In this document: one piece after another, positions 27,326-34,953 of the stretch
Numbering within the stretch: the stretch's first letter is position 1
How the letters are laid out: each line of letters opens with the position of its first letter
Source of the DNA: a virus
Direction: 5' to 3' (one strand)
DNA length: 64,000 nucleotides
IMG/VR virus record: IMGVR_UViG_3300045988_102159
Location: 78,631-142,630 of that record
Notes under the pieces: generated by a model
The model's database searches: none
What the model was told of the DNA's origin: nothing
The model's input: the letters and a program-made list of their open reading frames with translations, nothing else
Made by a program: the position numbers and the translations under genes

Positions 27326-27373
27326 GGCCATTTATGGCCGCGAAATTATACACCATGCGTACAGCTTTGTCAA
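27326..27373 (-). promoter_or_regulatory. orphan consensus promoter (TTGACA-N17-TATAAT) running into hairpin GGCCATAAATGGCC-T5
   Basis: -35 at 27368-27373, -10 at 27345-27350, hairpin at 27326-27339. No ORF follows. Confidence 0.6.
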
Positions 27374-27510
27374 GAGTTTTTGACGAGATTTTTCAAAACT
27401 TTTTTCTCCACACAGTGCCCACAATCCCGAAACTGGGCATACTTTTGCATTCCATCGCATGGGACAAAAGCAGGTCTATTTTAAATTGCCGTCTTTTTTG
27501 CTTTTGCGCT

Positions 27511-27637
27511 GAAAATGACTTTTAATCTGATTTTGAAATTGAATCTGAAAATGATTTCTGATTTGAAAATTGATTTTGAATCTGATTTTCAATTTGATTT
27601 TGAATCTGATTTTCAATTTGATTTTGAATCTGAAAAT
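27511..27637. repeat. phased A/T-tract tandem repeats (GATTTTGAATCTGATTTTCAATTT, ~11-12-bp phasing)
   Basis: About five 24-bp units read directly. Confidence 0.8.
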
Positions 27638-27651
27638 GTTTCACGTGAAAC
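27638..27651. repeat. palindrome GTTTCACGTGAAAC (copy 2)
   Basis: Perfect palindrome. Confidence 0.9.
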
Positions 27652-27685
27652 GCAAGCGCGCCGTAGGCGAAACTTAATCACAAAA

Positions 27686-27733
27686 GCCCATTTATGGGCA
27701 GAAAATTGTACTACCGCGATTTAGTTTTGTCAA
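27686..27733 (-). promoter_or_regulatory. orphan consensus promoter (TTGACA-N17-TACAAT) + hairpin GCCCATAAATGGGC-T4
   Basis: -35 at 27728-27733, -10 at 27705-27710, hairpin at 27686-27699. Confidence 0.6.
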
Positions 27734-27778
27734 GAACTTTTTTCAAAAAATTTTTTGGCGCACTTGCCGCCCGAGTCC

Positions 27779-27803
27779 AAAAAAAGGCTCCCCGAGGGGA
27801 GCC
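27779..27803 (-). terminator. intrinsic terminator
   Basis: GGCTCCCC/GGGGAGCC hairpin followed by T7 on the minus strand. Confidence 0.7.
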
Positions 27804-27812
27804 TAGCCGAAC

Positions 27813-28004
27813 TTATGAAAATTGCTCTATGTTCTGGTCGATTACATTACGGATGGTGGTTAGCGCTTCAAGTATTTCGTCCTTCTGCTTTTGGATTATC
27901 TCGCGCTCGCGGTCGCTTTTGGCGTTAGCGTAGTTCGCCTGAGCCGAGTAAAGCATCCCGAGAAGGTCGAGGGTAGGCAGGCTTGCGAGGTTTTTGTCGA
28001 TCAT
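27813..28004 (-). CDS. hypothetical small protein
   Basis: Start trimmed to MIDKNLASL (AAAGGAG RBS). It has its own TTGCGC-N18-TATACT promoter and a terminator. Confidence 0.6.
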   Translation of the reverse strand: MIDKNLASLPTLDLLGMLYSAQANYANAKSDREREIIQKQKDEILEALTTIRNVIDQNIEQFS

Positions 28005-28197
28005 TTGAAACTCCTTTAGTTTGTTCTTCCCAACTGACAAGGTCAGTATACACCTGCTAGGGCATGGTGCGCAATAGTTATTTTGAAAAAAGTTTCCCCA
28101 AAAGCAAAAAAGTTTTTAGAAAAAAGTTCTTGCGCTCGGTATAATGTTCCCTTATACTATAGTTGTAACGCAAGGAGCTAACCCAAAGGAGTTGCCA

Positions 28198-28380
28198 ATG
28201 TTCAAGAACAGCACAATGGCAAAGTGGTATGATATTGTCGAGGTCATTGCATGGATTGTCTATGCCGCAACATTCGTCTGGTTCCTGCTCACGGATGCGA
28301 ACGCTGCTGTAAATGCTAACTTATTAGCGGCTGCGTGGGCGTTTCCCATGCAAATGTACCGCGCCTATTGGAATTTGTAG
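28198..28380 (+). CDS. small membrane protein
   Basis: Starts MFKNSTMAKW with an AAAGGAG RBS and has one or two hydrophobic helices. Confidence 0.55.
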   Translation: MFKNSTMAKWYDIVEVIAWIVYAATFVWFLLTDANAAVNANLLAAAWAFPMQMYRAYWNL

Positions 28381-28457
28381 AAAATATGGCGGTTGCAATA
28401 ACCGCCATAATCTGATAGAATAATAAGCGTAGCGAAGCAACAAGGAAAGGAAATACT

Positions 28458-28928
28458 ATGTGCAACATTGACAAGACCATCAAGGAGCTGAACACGGCTC
28501 TGGTTCTGCTTGACGCTTTTGGTGATGGGCATGAGTTCACTATGCACCATTATGAGGAACTTGCCGCAACCGCCAACGAGCTTTTTGGTGGTCGTTACAG
28601 CGATTCAAACGTTTGCTATAGTGTTAGTTGGGTTCGCAAGCATCTAAACTATTTCGGCATTCATAAGACTGGTTCGCGTGAGATTGAAGTTATTAGTTCT
28701 CACAAAGTTTACAAGAGTGTTTATAGTGACTTTTTTAAGGGTATATACGATGGGAACAAAATTGATACTAAAACCGTTGAGCAATTCATTTACCGCATGG
28801 ATGCAGTAGAGGACTGCAAGAACTTTATCAAGCGTCGCAAGGATGAAATTCGTTGTGAAATGGATAGAATAGAAGCGACCATCGAGCGCGACAAGCAGCG
28901 TCTTGAAACACTCAAGAAAATGCTTTAG
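28458..28928 (+). CDS. hypothetical protein
   Basis: 156 aa with AAGGAAAGGAA RBS and a terminator downstream. Confidence 0.65.
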   Translation: MCNIDKTIKELNTALVLLDAFGDGHEFTMHHYEELAATANELFGGRYSDSNVCYSVSWVRKHLNYFGIHKTGSREIEVISSHKVYKSVYSDFFKGIYDGNKIDTKTVEQFIYRMDAVEDCKNFIKRRKDEIRCEMDRIEATIERDKQRLETLKKML

Positions 28929-28937
28929 CAGATAGCA

Positions 28938-28970
28938 AAACCGTCCATCTGAAAAGGTGGGCGGTTTATT
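28938..28970 (+). terminator. intrinsic terminator
   Basis: ACCGTCCATC / GGTGGGCGGT stem followed by TTTATT. Confidence 0.6.
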
Positions 28971-28984
28971 GTTTCACGTGAAAC
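28971..28984. repeat. palindrome GTTTCACGTGAAAC (copy 3)
   Basis: Perfect palindrome. Confidence 0.9.
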
Positions 28985-29006
28985 GTTAAAGCACGCACAC
29001 TCAAAA

Positions 29007-33130: not shown

Positions 33131-33356
33131 ACGAATGGGGAGCCTAACGGCTCCCTTTTCTTTTGCCATGAGTAAAGGCGATTCTAGCGCTCTAGAGCGT
33201 GCGGCAAGCACTTTATTTAAAATAAGGACTTTGACCAAATGGCACCTTAAAACGCGTCTCATGGCTTCTATGGCGATATTTTTTTATTTAGGTACCGCAT
33301 TATCCGGCAAGAAGTTAGCTACAGTTAACACCGCTTAAATCGGCTCTCATGGCTTC

Positions 33357-33370
33357 GTTAGGTACCTAAC
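33357..33370. repeat. palindrome GTTAGGTACCTAAC (copy 1)
   Basis: Perfect 14-bp palindrome. Partial copies occur at 31751, 33288 and 34935. Confidence 0.85.
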
Positions 33371-33411
33371 TAATCAAGCAAAGTTTGCCATTGGTAACTT
33401 TGGATTTAAAA

Positions 33412-33427
33412 GTTTACCCAGGTAAAC
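33412..33427. repeat. palindrome GTTTACCCAGGTAAAC
   Basis: 7-bp arms. Same family as GTTACCCTAGGGTAAC. Confidence 0.8.
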
Positions 33428-33437
33428 TCCATCAAAA

Positions 33438-33487
33438 CGCCATTTATGGCGCAAAAAATTTTACACCCGCCACCATAGTTTTGTCAA
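33438..33487 (-). promoter_or_regulatory. orphan promoter (TTGACA-N18-TAAAAT) + hairpin CGCCATAAATGGCG-T4
   Basis: -35 at 33482-33487, -10 at 33458-33463, hairpin at 33438-33451. Confidence 0.55.
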
Positions 33488-33525
33488 GCACTTTTTTGTC
33501 TACATTTTTTCTACATATTTCCTAT

Positions 33526-33612
33526 TTGAAACGCTTCAATTATTGAAACGCTCTAAAAAGTTACCCTAGGGTAACGCTGATTGAAACGCTTCAAGTTTTA
33601 AAACGCTTTAAA
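33526..33612. promoter_or_regulatory. cluster of four TTGAAACGCTTCAA-type dyads
   Basis: Copies at 33526-33539, 33543-33554 (half site), 33581-33594 and 33597-33612 (variant TTTAAAACGCTTTAAA). Confidence 0.55.
33560..33575. repeat. palindrome GTTACCCTAGGGTAAC
   Basis: Perfect 16-bp palindrome followed by a T-run on the minus strand. Confidence 0.85.
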
Positions 33613-33654
33613 TGCACTTGTTTAAACAACCGTAGCTCCGAGGTTGGGTTCAAA

Positions 33655-33684
33655 ATTTTACACCCACCTGATTAGGTTTGTCAA
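33655..33684 (-). promoter_or_regulatory. orphan promoter TTGACA-N18-TAAAAT
   Basis: -35 at 33679-33684, -10 at 33655-33660. Confidence 0.5.
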
Positions 33685-33997
33685 CAATTTTTTTTTTGTA
33701 ATTTTTCGTTTTGACCACAAACTTTTCACAACCTGAAACTCAAATTTTTTTATGCAAGATTTGCCGCAAATGGCCTGATTCTATTCATTTTGCTTTGTCT
33801 GGCTACAGTGCCGATATTTTGAGAATCTGAAAAAACTAGGCTATTTACCTGGGGTTTCCATATTTTGAACACAATTTTTAAAATAGTTCTTGCCAAAAAG
33901 TTTATGCAAGCGTATAGTAATAGTTGTCCAAAGGGGACAGAGAAAAAAGAGCCGAACGGCGGCTCGCTCGCGTCTCGGGGACAGATTGGGGTTAGCT

Positions 33998-34426
33998 ATG
34001 GCTACCACTCGCACCAAGTTCCAGTTCACCGACTACCAGATGTTCGCGGCTCTCGTGAACGTCGCAGGCGATATCTCGCCCGAGGTCATTGCCAAGGCTT
34101 TGGGGGATAACTATGACCCCGAGAAGCACACGCCTGAGAGCCTTGCCCGCAAGGTCTCGCATAAGTTCCATGTTCTCAAGGAGAACGCGACCAAGCCCAA
34201 GGCCCCGAGCAAGACGGCACAGCTGAATAAGGCGCTTGCCGAGCAGGTTGCTGCTGAGTTCGCGGACGGTGAGCCGTTCACGCTTAATGACGTGATGGCA
34301 AAGCACCCAGCCGATATCAAGACGTTTAGCAAGGCGGGTGTTGTGGTGAACGTACTCCTTGCCGAGAAGCGTGTCCGCAAGGCGGCACCTATCAACAACA
34401 AGACCGCCTATGTTATCGTAGCGTAG
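33998..34426 (+). CDS. hypothetical protein, possible winged-helix C-terminus
   Basis: Start trimmed to MATTRTKFQF. The ORF is GC-rich. Its C-terminus resembles that of 36228..36557. Confidence 0.5.
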   Translation: MATTRTKFQFTDYQMFAALVNVAGDISPEVIAKALGDNYDPEKHTPESLARKVSHKFHVLKENATKPKAPSKTAQLNKALAEQVAAEFADGEPFTLNDVMAKHPADIKTFSKAGVVVNVLLAEKRVRKAAPINNKTAYVIVA

Positions 34427-34501
34427 CCGTCTATAGGGTGGGGGAGATAATCCCCCACCCACTACCCAAGCACCTATAAAACAGCATAAGGACGGTCACG
34501 T

Positions 34502-34768
34502 TTGGAATCCTACAGACGTAACGCGCTAATTGCAGCATTTGGCGAGCTACCCGACAAAGAGTTGCAATGCCTAGGGCGCGGGCTAGAAGCTCACCACGTA
34601 AACAGCATGGCAAGCGGAAACGTAGTTTTGCTACCTTGCGAGATTCATAAAGTGGTTCACACACTAACGCAATTGGGCGGTAACGCCTACGCGAGCGGTG
34701 AGATAGAGAACGCCGAAACGCTCACCAAATGCGCACAAATGCTATTAGCGCAATTTACAATAAAATAA
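34502..34768 (+). CDS. small HNH-motif nuclease (start uncertain)
   Basis: Reads EAHHVNSMASGNVVLLPCEIHKVVH, a ββα-Me-like HH..N..H pattern. The start is TTG. Confidence 0.4.
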   Translation: MESYRRNALIAAFGELPDKELQCLGRGLEAHHVNSMASGNVVLLPCEIHKVVHTLTQLGGNAYASGEIENAETLTKCAQMLLAQFTIK

Positions 34769-34784
34769 CACAATTAAATAAATA

Positions 34785-34814
34785 ACCCCACCGGGTAGGT
34801 GGGGTTTTCTTTTG
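34785..34814 (+). terminator. intrinsic terminator
   Basis: CCCCACC-loop-GGTGGGG followed by TTTTCTTTT. Confidence 0.7.
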
Positions 34815-34909
34815 CGTTTAATTCCTACTAAAAAGGTAGGAAAAAGATCGCCCTGCCCAGCACAAACGCGCGAAAAAGTCAAGACTTTTTGAAAAAATTC
34901 ACAGAAATT

Positions 34910-34953
34910 CCATAGTTGGGTCGATTTTACACGATTAGGTACCTTATTGTCAA
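34910..34953 (-). promoter_or_regulatory. orphan promoter (TTGACA-N18-TAAAAT) + CCAACTATGG element
   Basis: -35 at 34948-34953, -10 at 34924-34929. Confidence 0.5.

What the first reader, a model, noticed from the sequence alone, without database searches (positions are those of the whole stretch)
27326..34953. Seven consensus minus-strand promoters in the plus-strand module fire into hairpins instead of genes
There are seven copies of AAAAGTTCTTGACA-N17/18-TA(T/C/A)AAT read on the minus strand. Their -35 boxes are at 27368, 27728, 29049, 31567 (weaker), 33482, 33679 and 34948. They belong to the same promoter family as the right-arm genes.

Here each one is followed within ~5 nt of the expected start by a short dyad, (G/C)(G/C)CCA(T/A)NNNTGG(G/C)(G/C), plus a T-run. 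In five cases a second dyad plus T-run follows 10-130 nt downstream (10-40 nt in four of them). The second dyad is GTTTCACGTGAAAC, GTTTACCTGGGTAAAC or GTTACCCTAGGGTAAC.

No minus-strand ORF with an RBS follows any of them. The transcripts would instead be 40-110 nt, or antisense to the 3' ends of plus-strand genes.

Three readings are possible. They may be a family of small or antisense RNAs. They may be promoters held off by a repressor binding the +1 dyad. Or they may be insulated cassette boundaries left by mosaic gene insertion.
Basis: seen in the sequence. Interest (0 to 1): 0.7.

Follow-up and report, generated by a model that had tools for sequence, protein, structure and literature searches.

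The report
Orphan antisense promoter–hairpin cassettes in phage
Seven strong host-type promoters in an uncultured gut phage point backwards into short hairpins instead of genes; relatives keep these ~80-base cassettes and recombine at them, but what their tiny RNAs do is still unproven.

Summary
Six perfect TTGACA-N17/18-TAHAAT promoters and one extended -10 promoter lie on the minus strand at 27.3-35.0 kb. Five carry CCA-N4-TGG 4-8 nt after the -10 (0 expected by chance); the extended -10 promoter P4 makes six.

The details are uneven:
- Only four cassettes (P1, P2, P3, P5) have a full hairpin plus T-run.
- P4 has no T-run, P7 has only the core, and P6 is degenerate in this window.
- Three of the four GTTTCACGTGAAAC copies have no T-run.

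No ORF with an RBS follows any promoter under three genetic codes, and no Rfam family matches.

About 29 IMG/VR contigs of related ~80-148 kb phages carry orthologous cassettes. Relatives whose convergent gene is only 37% identical keep the same layout. The lower stem covaries. Chimeric cassettes and isolated 80-bp islands show recombination between copies.

Best reading: promoter plus stem-loop cassettes resembling the PeSLs of T4-type phages, but antisense to their neighbouring genes. They would make short, self-terminated non-coding RNAs and act as recombination sites. Antitermination, a +1 operator and a decoy RNA remain open.

The parts
27345..27373 (-). P1 promoter: TTGACA-N17-TATAAT
   Evidence: orthologues in L026, L029 and L043
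27326..27339 (-). P1 +1 hairpin GGCCATAAATGGCC followed by T5
   Evidence: -7.8 kcal/mol
27303..27318 (-). P1 second mini-hairpin GGGCTTCGCCC followed by T5
   Evidence: conserved in orthologues
27182..27195 (.). Perfect 14-bp palindrome GTTTCACGTGAAAC, about 130 nt downstream of P1, with no T-run
   Evidence: 4 copies against 0.2 expected
27510..27634 (.). Tandem 12/24-mer repeats between P2 and P1; deleted in the P2/P1 chimeras
27705..27733 (-). P2 promoter: AAAAGTTCTTGACA-N17-TACAAT
27686..27699 (-). P2 +1 hairpin GCCCATAAATGGGC followed by T4
27638..27651 (.). GTTTCACGTGAAAC palindrome, 35 nt after the P2 hairpin, followed by ATTTT
29026..29054 (-). P3 promoter: TTGACA-N17-TATAAT
   Evidence: 13 orthologue variants
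29007..29020 (-). P3 +1 hairpin GCCCAACTATGGGC followed by T4. L014 carries the compensated form GTCCA/TGGAC.
28971..28984 (.). GTTTCACGTGAAAC palindrome directly next to the terminator of the convergent gene
28938..28967 (.). Terminator of the + strand gene 28458-28928, lying in the path of P3 transcripts
31544..31572 (-). P4 promoter: TTGCTT-N17-(TGTGG)TAAAAT, extended -10 type
   Evidence: nearly invariant in 11 relatives
31527..31540 (-). P4 dyad CGCCAACTATGGCG with no T-run. Homology to many relatives breaks at 31521.
31500..31513 (.). GTTTCACGTGAAAC palindrome, followed by an A-run
33458..33487 (-). P5 promoter: TTGACA-N18-TAAAAT
33437..33452 (-). P5 +1 hairpin GCGCCATAAATGGCGT plus T-run. 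The hairpin is precisely deleted in L008 and L071.
33412..33427 (-). P5 second hairpin GTTTACCTGGGTAAAC followed by T4. Across orthologues the stem is kept and the central 4 nt vary.
33655..33684 (-). P6 promoter: TTGACA-N18-TAAAAT
33635..33651 (-). P6 degenerate dyad GAACCCAACCTCGGAGC. Most orthologues read GCCCCAACCTCGGGGC, with no T-run.
33560..33575 (-). GTTACCCTAGGGTAAC followed by T5, about 75 nt downstream of P6
34924..34953 (-). P7 promoter: TTGACA-N18-TAAAAT. The spacer carries AAGGTACCTAA, half of the TTAGGTACCTAA palindrome.
   Evidence: 98.7% identity over 11 sequences
34910..34919 (-). P7 core CCAACTATGG, 4 nt after the -10, with no stem extension
34784..34840 (-). P7 downstream: conserved hairpin CCTACC..GGTAGG (34840-34824) and the bidirectional terminator shared with gene 34502-34768 (34806-34784)

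Best explanation
These are seven orthologous cassettes of about 80 bp, each a promoter plus a promoter-proximal stem-loop. They sit in the variable module of orphan genes (ORFans) of an uncultured ~140-kb phage of Bacillota. The orientation is unusual. Each cassette faces the 3' end of a neighbouring gene instead of driving one.

**Proposed mechanism**
1. Inferred from the sequence: host sigma-A RNA polymerase starts at the single purine about 6 nt after the -10. In P1, P2, P3 and P5 this purine is the first base of a 5-6 bp G+C-rich hairpin.
2. The elements are shown; termination itself is inferred. In P1, P2, P3 and P5 the hairpin plus U-tract forms a minimal intrinsic terminator near +18. 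Further hairpins or the convergent gene's own terminator follow within 25-140 nt. The default products would therefore be non-coding RNAs of about 20-140 nt that stop at or before the convergent gene.
3. Inferred role: the cassettes are self-limiting antisense transcription units that punctuate the module. They would meet read-through polymerases head-on and supply a 5'-hairpin-capped RNA.
4. Shown: because the cassettes are repeated 60-80 bp homologies, recombination between them deletes or swaps the intervening genes.

The physiological payoff of the short RNAs is not established.
For: - **Promoters and composite motif far above chance:**
- **No product other than RNA:** no ORF with an RBS under three genetic codes, and no Rfam family.
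- **Hairpins:** about -8 kcal/mol and flagged as terminator-like at P1-P3.
- **Lower stem covaries across paralogue types:** pair 9-22 is GC in 9 sequences and CG in 8; 0 of 500 shuffles reach the observed covariation score, and slid controls fall to 25-37% paired against 75%. L014 carries a compensated GTCCA/TGGAC stem.
- **Start purine kept:** position 6 stays a purine even where the change breaks the base pair (TTTCTACCCA in L040 and L052).
- **Orthologous cassettes** in about 29 IMG/VR contigs, in the same order.
- **Deep conservation of the layout:** in L068, a consensus promoter plus CCAACTATGG points at the orthologue of gene 32417-33130, which is only 37% identical.
- **Conservation above coding level:** the P7 and P4 cassettes are more conserved than the flanking genes.
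- **Recombination between copies:** chimeras, 80-bp islands and recurrent breakpoints.
Against: - No transcript data exist. The start sites, and termination so close to the promoter, are both inferred.
- A 5-bp stem is at the lower limit for an intrinsic terminator.
- P4, P6 and P7 have no U-tract, and about half of the P5 orthologues have a broken one (TCTTGG).
- L008 and L071 have lost the P5 hairpin, and L008 the P6 hairpin too, and evidently survive.
- In P4, P7 and the distant relatives, CCAACTATGG is kept without a possible stem and at a variable distance from the -10. Something other than an RNA hairpin therefore constrains the core.
- Only 5 of about 17 gene junctions in the module carry a cassette, so a general insulator role is not obvious.
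Confidence: 0.45

Rival explanations
1. Conditional read-through. The +1 hairpin would be a loading site on the nascent RNA, like a lambda nut site (boxB hairpin), for a phage antiterminator. Without the factor the promoters make only short RNAs. With it, polymerase runs antisense through the + strand ORFan module towards the minus-strand structural genes and silences the module.
For: - A conserved upper stem and loop with a covarying lower stem is the pattern expected of a protein-bound RNA hairpin. Lambda boxB, GCCCUGAAAAAGGGC, is my own recollection.
- Strong promoters are followed by serial terminators.
- All seven point towards the left-arm structural genes.
- A very basic 68-78 aa product (35306/35336-35542) is the first gene after the strongest + strand promoter. 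That promoter diverges from P7, and its 5'UTR carries CCATATTTGG.
Against: - No N, Q or other antiterminator family was detected in the neighbouring proteins.
- No boxA-like partner element was seen.
- The left arm has promoter-like sites of its own at about 24.0 and 24.7 kb.
- P7, P4 and the distant relatives lack a stable hairpin.
Confidence: 0.15
2. The CCA-N4-TGG dyad is a DNA operator. A phage or host dimeric protein binds across the start site and shuts these promoters. The hairpin potential is a by-product of palindromic symmetry.
For: - The core persists without stem extension in P7, P4 and the distant relatives, and at a variable register of 4-8 nt.
- The region is full of other operator-like palindromes: GTTTCACGTGAAAC four times, and TTAGGTACCTAA, including a half site inside the P7 spacer.
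- The non-coding DNA around P7 is more conserved than the genes.
Against: - The outer stem positions are complementary but use different bases in five or six paralogue types. Protein contacts would not be expected to select for that.
- Gene-driving promoters of the arms lack the motif, so it is not a general early-promoter operator.
- No DNA-binding domain was recognised in the neighbouring ORFs.
- The apparent invariance of the core is partly a result of how the loci were collected: the search pattern required it. L023 has TGA in place of TGG.
Confidence: 0.15
3. The mini-hairpin RNA is itself the product. Seven strong promoters would flood the cell with a 5'-triphosphate hairpin carrying a U-tail. 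This RNA would act as a decoy or sponge for a host RNA-binding protein, a nuclease or a defence sensor.
For: - The motif occurs only at promoters that have no gene.
- The linker after the hairpin is not conserved, so there is no seed for base pairing.
- Seven near-consensus promoters would give a high dose.
Against: - No target is known.
- Some relatives have lost a hairpin.
- A test for mimicry of CRISPR repeats found arrays with this hairpin only in Chloroflexi and cyanobacterial genomes, not in gut Bacillota.
Confidence: 0.1
4. The promoters activate or prime replication origins. P2/P1 and P6/P5 flank repeat arrays, and transcription into them would open the DNA or provide a primer, as at the T7 and T4 origins.
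For: - Tandem 12-mers at 27571-27633 lie between P2 and P1, and GAAGCGTTTCAA repeats lie between P6 and P5.
- A third repeat array at 36677-36741 sits next to another orphan promoter at 36806.
Against: - P3, P4 and P7 have no repeats.
- Several relatives have lost the P2-P1 repeats or the P6-P5 repeats (L055).
- The GC skew simply follows gene orientation.
- No initiator gene was identified.
Confidence: 0.08

Closest known systems
PeSL (promoter-early stem-loop) cassettes of T4-type phages (PMC2839356, PMC4122927)
   Same: - A consensus host-sigma promoter with an A/T-rich upstream tract, plus an adjacent stem-loop.
- A unit of about 60-100 bp, repeated in an ORFan-rich variable region.
- Recombination between copies, including crossovers inside the loop, deletes or swaps the genes in between.
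   Different: - PeSLs end in a Shine-Dalgarno sequence and the start codon of a gene on the same strand. The cassettes here face the 3' ends of convergent genes and drive no ORF.
- The stem-loop here is always just downstream of the -10 and carries a conserved CCA-N4-TGG core.
- The host is Bacillota-type and the phage is unrelated to T4.
- Minicircle formation was not tested.
Lambda oop RNA and the 3'-overlapping antisense RNAs of Bacillus prophages, such as SR4/bsrG of SPbeta (from my own knowledge, not checked here)
   Same: A constitutive promoter with no ORF, convergent on the 3' end of a gene, giving a short terminated RNA.
   Different: - Those RNAs overlap their target by tens of nucleotides. 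Here, if the terminators work, the overlap is at most the shared terminator hairpin.
- The convergent genes here encode 88-237 aa products, not small toxins.
Lambdoid PR'-tR' (Q) and nut/boxB (N) antitermination (from my own knowledge)
   Same: A strong promoter that by default makes only a short terminated RNA, and a small promoter-proximal hairpin with a conserved loop.
   Different: - No N or Q homologue and no boxA.
- There are seven sites rather than one or two.
- No same-strand genes lie directly downstream.
5'-terminal stem-loop RNA stabilisers of Bacillus, such as the aprE and ermC leaders (from my own knowledge)
   Same: A hairpin that begins at the first transcribed base.
   Different: Those stabilisers protect an mRNA. 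No coding or clearly structured RNA follows here.

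Membership tests
PeSL cassettes (T4-type phages) | Consensus sigma-70/sigma-A promoter with an A/T-rich upstream tract | tested here: met
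PeSL cassettes (T4-type phages) | Stem-loop within or next to the promoter | tested here: met
   It is clear for P1-P5 and for the P6 orthologues, but not for P7.
PeSL cassettes (T4-type phages) | Intergenic position in an ORFan-rich, indel-prone (hyperplastic) region | tested here: met
   ORFans. Mosaic structure against relatives.
PeSL cassettes (T4-type phages) | Shine-Dalgarno sequence and start codon of a downstream gene on the same strand at the 3' end of the cassette | tested here: not met
   No ORF with an RBS follows. The neighbouring genes are convergent.
PeSL cassettes (T4-type phages) | Recombination between copies giving chimeric cassettes and loss or swap of the flanked genes | tested here: met
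PeSL cassettes (T4-type phages) | Excised minicircles detectable by inverse PCR | not testable with these tools
   Needs infected cells.
Intrinsic (Rho-independent) terminator | G+C-rich stem of at least 5 bp, loop of 3-8 nt, directly followed by a U-tract | tested here: inconclusive
   Met at P1, P2, P3 and P5. Not met at P4, P6 and P7. The stems are at the minimum length.
Intrinsic (Rho-independent) terminator | RNA 3' ends form at the U-tract | not testable with these tools
   Needs Term-seq or in vitro transcription.
N/nut or Q antitermination | A cognate antiterminator protein encoded nearby | tested here: not met
   No such Pfam or PHROG family in 20 neighbouring ORFs. A basic 68-78 aa ORF is only suggestive.
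N/nut or Q antitermination | Same-strand genes behind the terminators that need read-through | tested here: not met
   The genes directly downstream are on the other strand.
Cis-antisense RNA / type I antitoxin | Promoter convergent on the target gene, with an overlap of tens of nucleotides | tested here: inconclusive
   The convergent geometry is met. The overlap depends on read-through of the hairpins.
Cis-antisense RNA / type I antitoxin | The target is a small hydrophobic toxin peptide | tested here: not met
   The convergent genes encode 88-237 aa; one is NT5C-like.
Any curated RNA family (Rfam 15) | A match at or near the gathering score | tested here: not met
CRISPR repeat mimic (solitary repeat / RNA anti-CRISPR) | The hairpin matches a CRISPR repeat of a plausible host | tested here: not met
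   Arrays with CCCA-WMWA-TGGG occur only in Chloroflexi, cyanobacteria and similar genomes. Other stem variants were not searched.

The most novel reading that the evidence does not exclude
The cassettes form a dedicated system in which the promoter-proximal hairpin is the functional unit. There are two versions. In the first, the hairpin is a nut-like RNA site that lets a small phage factor convert seven antisense promoters into a terminator-resistant sweep, silencing the ORFan module at a set time. In the second, the hairpin is a mass-produced 5'-triphosphate RNA that titrates a host RNA-binding or defence protein. Either would be a gene-less regulatory device not yet described for phages of Bacillota.
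Probability: 0.2. Interest if true: 0.8.

Novelty: new variant of a known kind. Interest (0 to 1): 0.5.

Why it matters
The cassettes suggest that repeated promoter-plus-stem-loop modules are not peculiar to T4-type phages. A widespread, uncultured lineage of gut phages of Bacillota would use them too, and in an orientation that serves no neighbouring gene.

That orientation separates two roles that are confounded in T4 PeSLs: driving the next gene, and being a conserved recombination and transcription-punctuation element.

The cassettes are also compact, near-consensus promoter and attenuator parts. They give seven defined places to look for gene-less phage RNAs.

Tried and rejected
- **Near and distant BLAST against deposited phages.** No relative and no cassette match; only chance hits to Vibrio phages. 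Only the terminase links the phage to the SPbeta, Geobacillus E3 and phAss-1 group, at 29-43% identity.
- **Rfam** at gathering and permissive thresholds: nothing.
- **Hidden ORFs** under TAG-sense or TGA-sense codes: none with an RBS. The 75-codon GTG frame after P1 is broken in L026.
- **Structured RNA after P6.** The consensus fold has 0 compensatory pairs because the sequences are too similar.
- **Sigma-dependent pause** through the -10-like AACTAT. This does not fit the TAAA-loop cassettes and was dropped.
- **Pairing of the loop CAACUAU with ATAGTTG** near the + strand promoters. The match lies mostly upstream of the likely start sites and was dropped.
- **Mini-ORFs** (MGF*, MAF*, MEFL*). 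These are explained by the ATGG of the dyad plus the T-run.
- **Type I toxin-antitoxin.** The convergent genes are not small toxins.
- **Prophage or host search** with the invariant P7 34-mer in 185,579 genomes: no hit.
- **CRISPR-repeat mimicry.** Matching arrays occur only in unrelated phyla.
- **Protein annotation** of the suggested wHTH-like proteins. Pfam, PHROGs and PDB sequence searches gave nothing, so their DNA-binding nature is unverified.
- **GC skew as an origin marker.** It follows gene orientation only.

Full report
**Context**

The window is part of a large phage genome.
- It has a minus-strand left arm that includes a terminase. The terminase is 29-43% identical to those of Geobacillus E3, phAss-1 and SPbeta-like phages.
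- It has a minus-strand right arm with tRNAs, an Rnl1-type RNA ligase, PhoH and a GIY-YIG endonuclease.
- Between the arms, at about 25.6-35.5 kb, lies a + strand module with higher G+C content. Most of its genes are orphans (ORFans). Many have a promoter-like TTGCnn-N16/17-TATAnT site upstream and a terminator downstream.
- No deposited phage is similar at the DNA level.
- The distant phAss-1 group is assigned to hosts among the Clostridia (PMC10607447). A sigma-A type promoter consensus is therefore appropriate.

Yes for the promoters. Six minus-strand TTGACA-N17/18-TAHAAT sites lie at 27373, 27733, 29054, 33487, 33684 and 34953. The whole window has 16 such sites against 0.43 expected. The seventh, P4, has TTGCTT-N17-(TGTGG)TAAAAT at 31572-31544 and is nearly invariant in 11 relatives.

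The composite pattern of promoter, 3-8 nt and CCA-N4-TGG occurs five times against 0.00 in shuffles. P4 makes six. Seven of the eight CCAWHWWTGG sites in 64 kb fall between 27.3 and 35.3 kb.

- A 5-6 bp hairpin plus T-run exists at P1, P2, P3 and P5 only, each about -8 kcal/mol.
- P4 has the hairpin but no T-run. P7 has the core only, 4 nt after the -10. P6 is degenerate in this window, although most orthologues read GCCCCAACCTCGGGGC.
- GTTTCACGTGAAAC occurs four times against 0.2 expected. A T-run follows it only weakly at P2, and not at P1, P3 or P4.
- The right-arm promoters share only the generic consensus. They have AT-rich spacers and are followed by an RBS and a gene within 20-40 nt.

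The claim that no ORF follows holds under the standard code and with TAG or TGA read as sense.

**Relatives**

A pattern scan of IMG/VR returned 72 loci. About 29 contigs of 80-148 kb belong to this phage lineage.

In the close relatives, which share 80-90% DNA identity, each cassette type has orthologues in the same order. Each type is recognisable by its own spacer sequence.

The P7 cassette is 98.7% identical over 11 sequences, with 89% of columns invariant. The adjacent genes are 77-84% identical. P4 behaves the same way: it is conserved while its downstream sequence switches between two unrelated haplotypes.

In much more distant relatives (L033, L051, L065, L068, L069, L012) the DNA is otherwise unalignable, yet the same layout recurs. 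It consists of TTGACx-N17/18-(GTGG)TAAAAT or TATAAT, a T-rich stretch, then CCGCCAACTATGGAGA. A second -35-like site often follows, then a strong terminator and a convergent gene. In L068 that convergent gene is the orthologue of 32417-33130 at 37% identity.

The architecture is therefore old and maintained. It is not debris.

**Hairpin or sequence motif?**

Both signals are present.

For a hairpin:
- The two pairs outside CCA/TGG are complementary but use different bases: GCCCA/TGGGC, GGCCA/TGGCC, CGCCA/TGGCG, GCGCCA/TGGCGT and, in L014, GTCCA/TGGAC.
- The covariation score exceeds all 500 shuffles. Slid registers pair only 25-37% of cells, against 75% for the proposed register.
- The hairpin starts at the only purine near the expected start site. 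That position stays a purine even where the change breaks the pair.

Against an exclusive RNA-hairpin role:
- 14 of 25 distinct sequences lack pair 10-21.
- P7, P4 and the distant relatives keep CCAACTATGG with no usable stem, 4-8 nt from the -10.
- L008 and L071 have precisely lost hairpins.

One caution applies. The invariance of the core is partly due to ascertainment, because the search pattern required it. L023 carries TGA in place of TGG.

**Recombination**

Alignment A2 shows several chimeras.
- L021 and L052 have a P2 promoter and hairpin joined to P1 downstream sequence.
- L031 and L041 have the crossover inside the hairpin (GCCCA-TAAA-TGGCC).
- L039 is a P3/P1 hybrid.

These events remove the 360 bp or 1.7 kb in between.

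Further cases appear. L055 has a P6 promoter with a P5 hairpin. L056 is the reverse. L013 is a hybrid of the two second dyads.

BLAST shows the P3 cassette as an isolated 80-bp island in L043 and L053, a recurrent homology break at 31521, and large presence/absence differences across 25-32 kb.

**What is made?**

Nothing recognisable beyond the hairpins.
- No Rfam family matches.
- The linker between the first and second hairpin varies freely among orthologues.
- The roughly 100-nt P6 RNA shows no compensatory pairs, because the sequences are too similar to test.

The motif is absent from promoters that drive genes. This suggests that the promoters exist to transcribe, or act through, the dyad itself.

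**Mechanism I commit to (confidence 0.45)**

The cassettes are self-limiting antisense transcription units.
- Sigma-A polymerase starts at the first base of the hairpin. This step is inferred.
- Hairpin plus U-tract, backed by downstream hairpins and the convergent gene's terminator, keeps the products at about 20-140 nt. The elements are shown; termination is inferred.
- The repeated cassettes serve as homologous recombination sites that reshuffle the ORFan module. This is shown by comparison with relatives.

Rival explanations are conditional antitermination (0.15), a DNA operator at +1 (0.15), a decoy hairpin RNA (0.10) and origin-associated promoters (0.08).

**Comparison with known systems**

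The closest described system is the PeSL of T4-type phages (PMC2839356, PMC4122927). The two share the consensus promoter, the adjacent stem-loop, the ORFan-rich setting and recombination within the loop.

A defining PeSL feature is not met: the Shine-Dalgarno sequence and start codon of a downstream gene on the same strand. I therefore file this as working like a PeSL, not as a member of the family.

Lambda oop, the SPbeta antisense RNAs, PR'-tR' and nut sites are partial analogies drawn from my own knowledge.

**Verdict**

This is a real, conserved and mechanistically unresolved feature. It is a new variant of a known kind. Interest 0.5.

Noticed in passing
whole window: TTGCSGC occurs 105 times against about 7 expected. 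The 9-bp palindrome TTGCSGCAA occurs 14 times against 0.8 expected. Copies lie in coding and non-coding DNA on both strands. The cause is unknown.
   Followed up: partly
window 24030-24706 (-): A perfect consensus promoter at 24706 fires into about 650 nt with no long (>=60 aa) minus-strand ORF listed, ahead of the first left-arm gene. The start of that stretch, AACCATAGCGCC, is conserved in the distant relative L051. No Rfam match. It may be a large non-coding RNA or a long leader.
   Followed up: partly
window 36677-36834 (+): An eighth orphan consensus promoter (TTGACA-N17-TAAAAT at 36806) lies on the + strand, antisense to the minus-strand gene 36961-37812. It is preceded by five tandem 12-mers and is conserved in relatives, but has no CCA-N4-TGG dyad.
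   Followed up: partly
window 34976-35305: This non-coding DNA between P7 and the divergent + strand promoter at 35216 is 89-93% identical in 11 relatives, more than the flanking genes. It contains GTTTACCTAGGGTAAC, TTAGGTACCTAA and a terminator-like hairpin at 35007-34995 (-). It may be a structured RNA or a protein-binding platform.
   Followed up: partly
window 33358, 35163; half sites at 31751, 33288, 34935: The 12-bp palindrome TTAGGTACCTAA occurs twice. Three half sites also occur, one of them inside the spacer of promoter P7. It looks like an operator.
   Followed up: no
window 35272-35300 and 35306-35542 (+): The 5'UTR of the transcript from the 35216 promoter carries CCATATTTGG and an inverted CCCATATGG. 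The ORF behind it encodes a very basic 68-78 aa protein with no recognised family.
   Followed up: partly
window 27510-27634 and 33520-33600: Tandem 12/24-mer repeats lie between P2 and P1, and GAAGCGTTTCAA-type repeats lie between P6 and P5. Both arrays are lost in some relatives through recombination between cassettes.
   Followed up: partly
window 6906-8286 (-): Three group I introns lie close together in the left arm (Rfam scores 61-80 bits).
   Followed up: no
window 31838-32344 (+): An HNH endonuclease gene with its own TTGACA-N17-TATGAT promoter is absent from most relatives, so it appears to be a recent insertion.
   Followed up: partly
window 49541-58642 (-): A set of genes suggesting RNA repair: an Rnl1-type RNA ligase, a metallophosphoesterase, several tRNA genes and a GIY-YIG/NUMOD endonuclease.
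   Followed up: no
L075, L078, L080, L086 (Chloroflexi genomes): CRISPR arrays whose repeats contain a CCCA-WMWA-TGGG hairpin, for example CTTTAAATAAAAAAGCCCCATTGATGGGGATTGAAAC. These organisms are unrelated to the hosts of this phage.
   Followed up: yes
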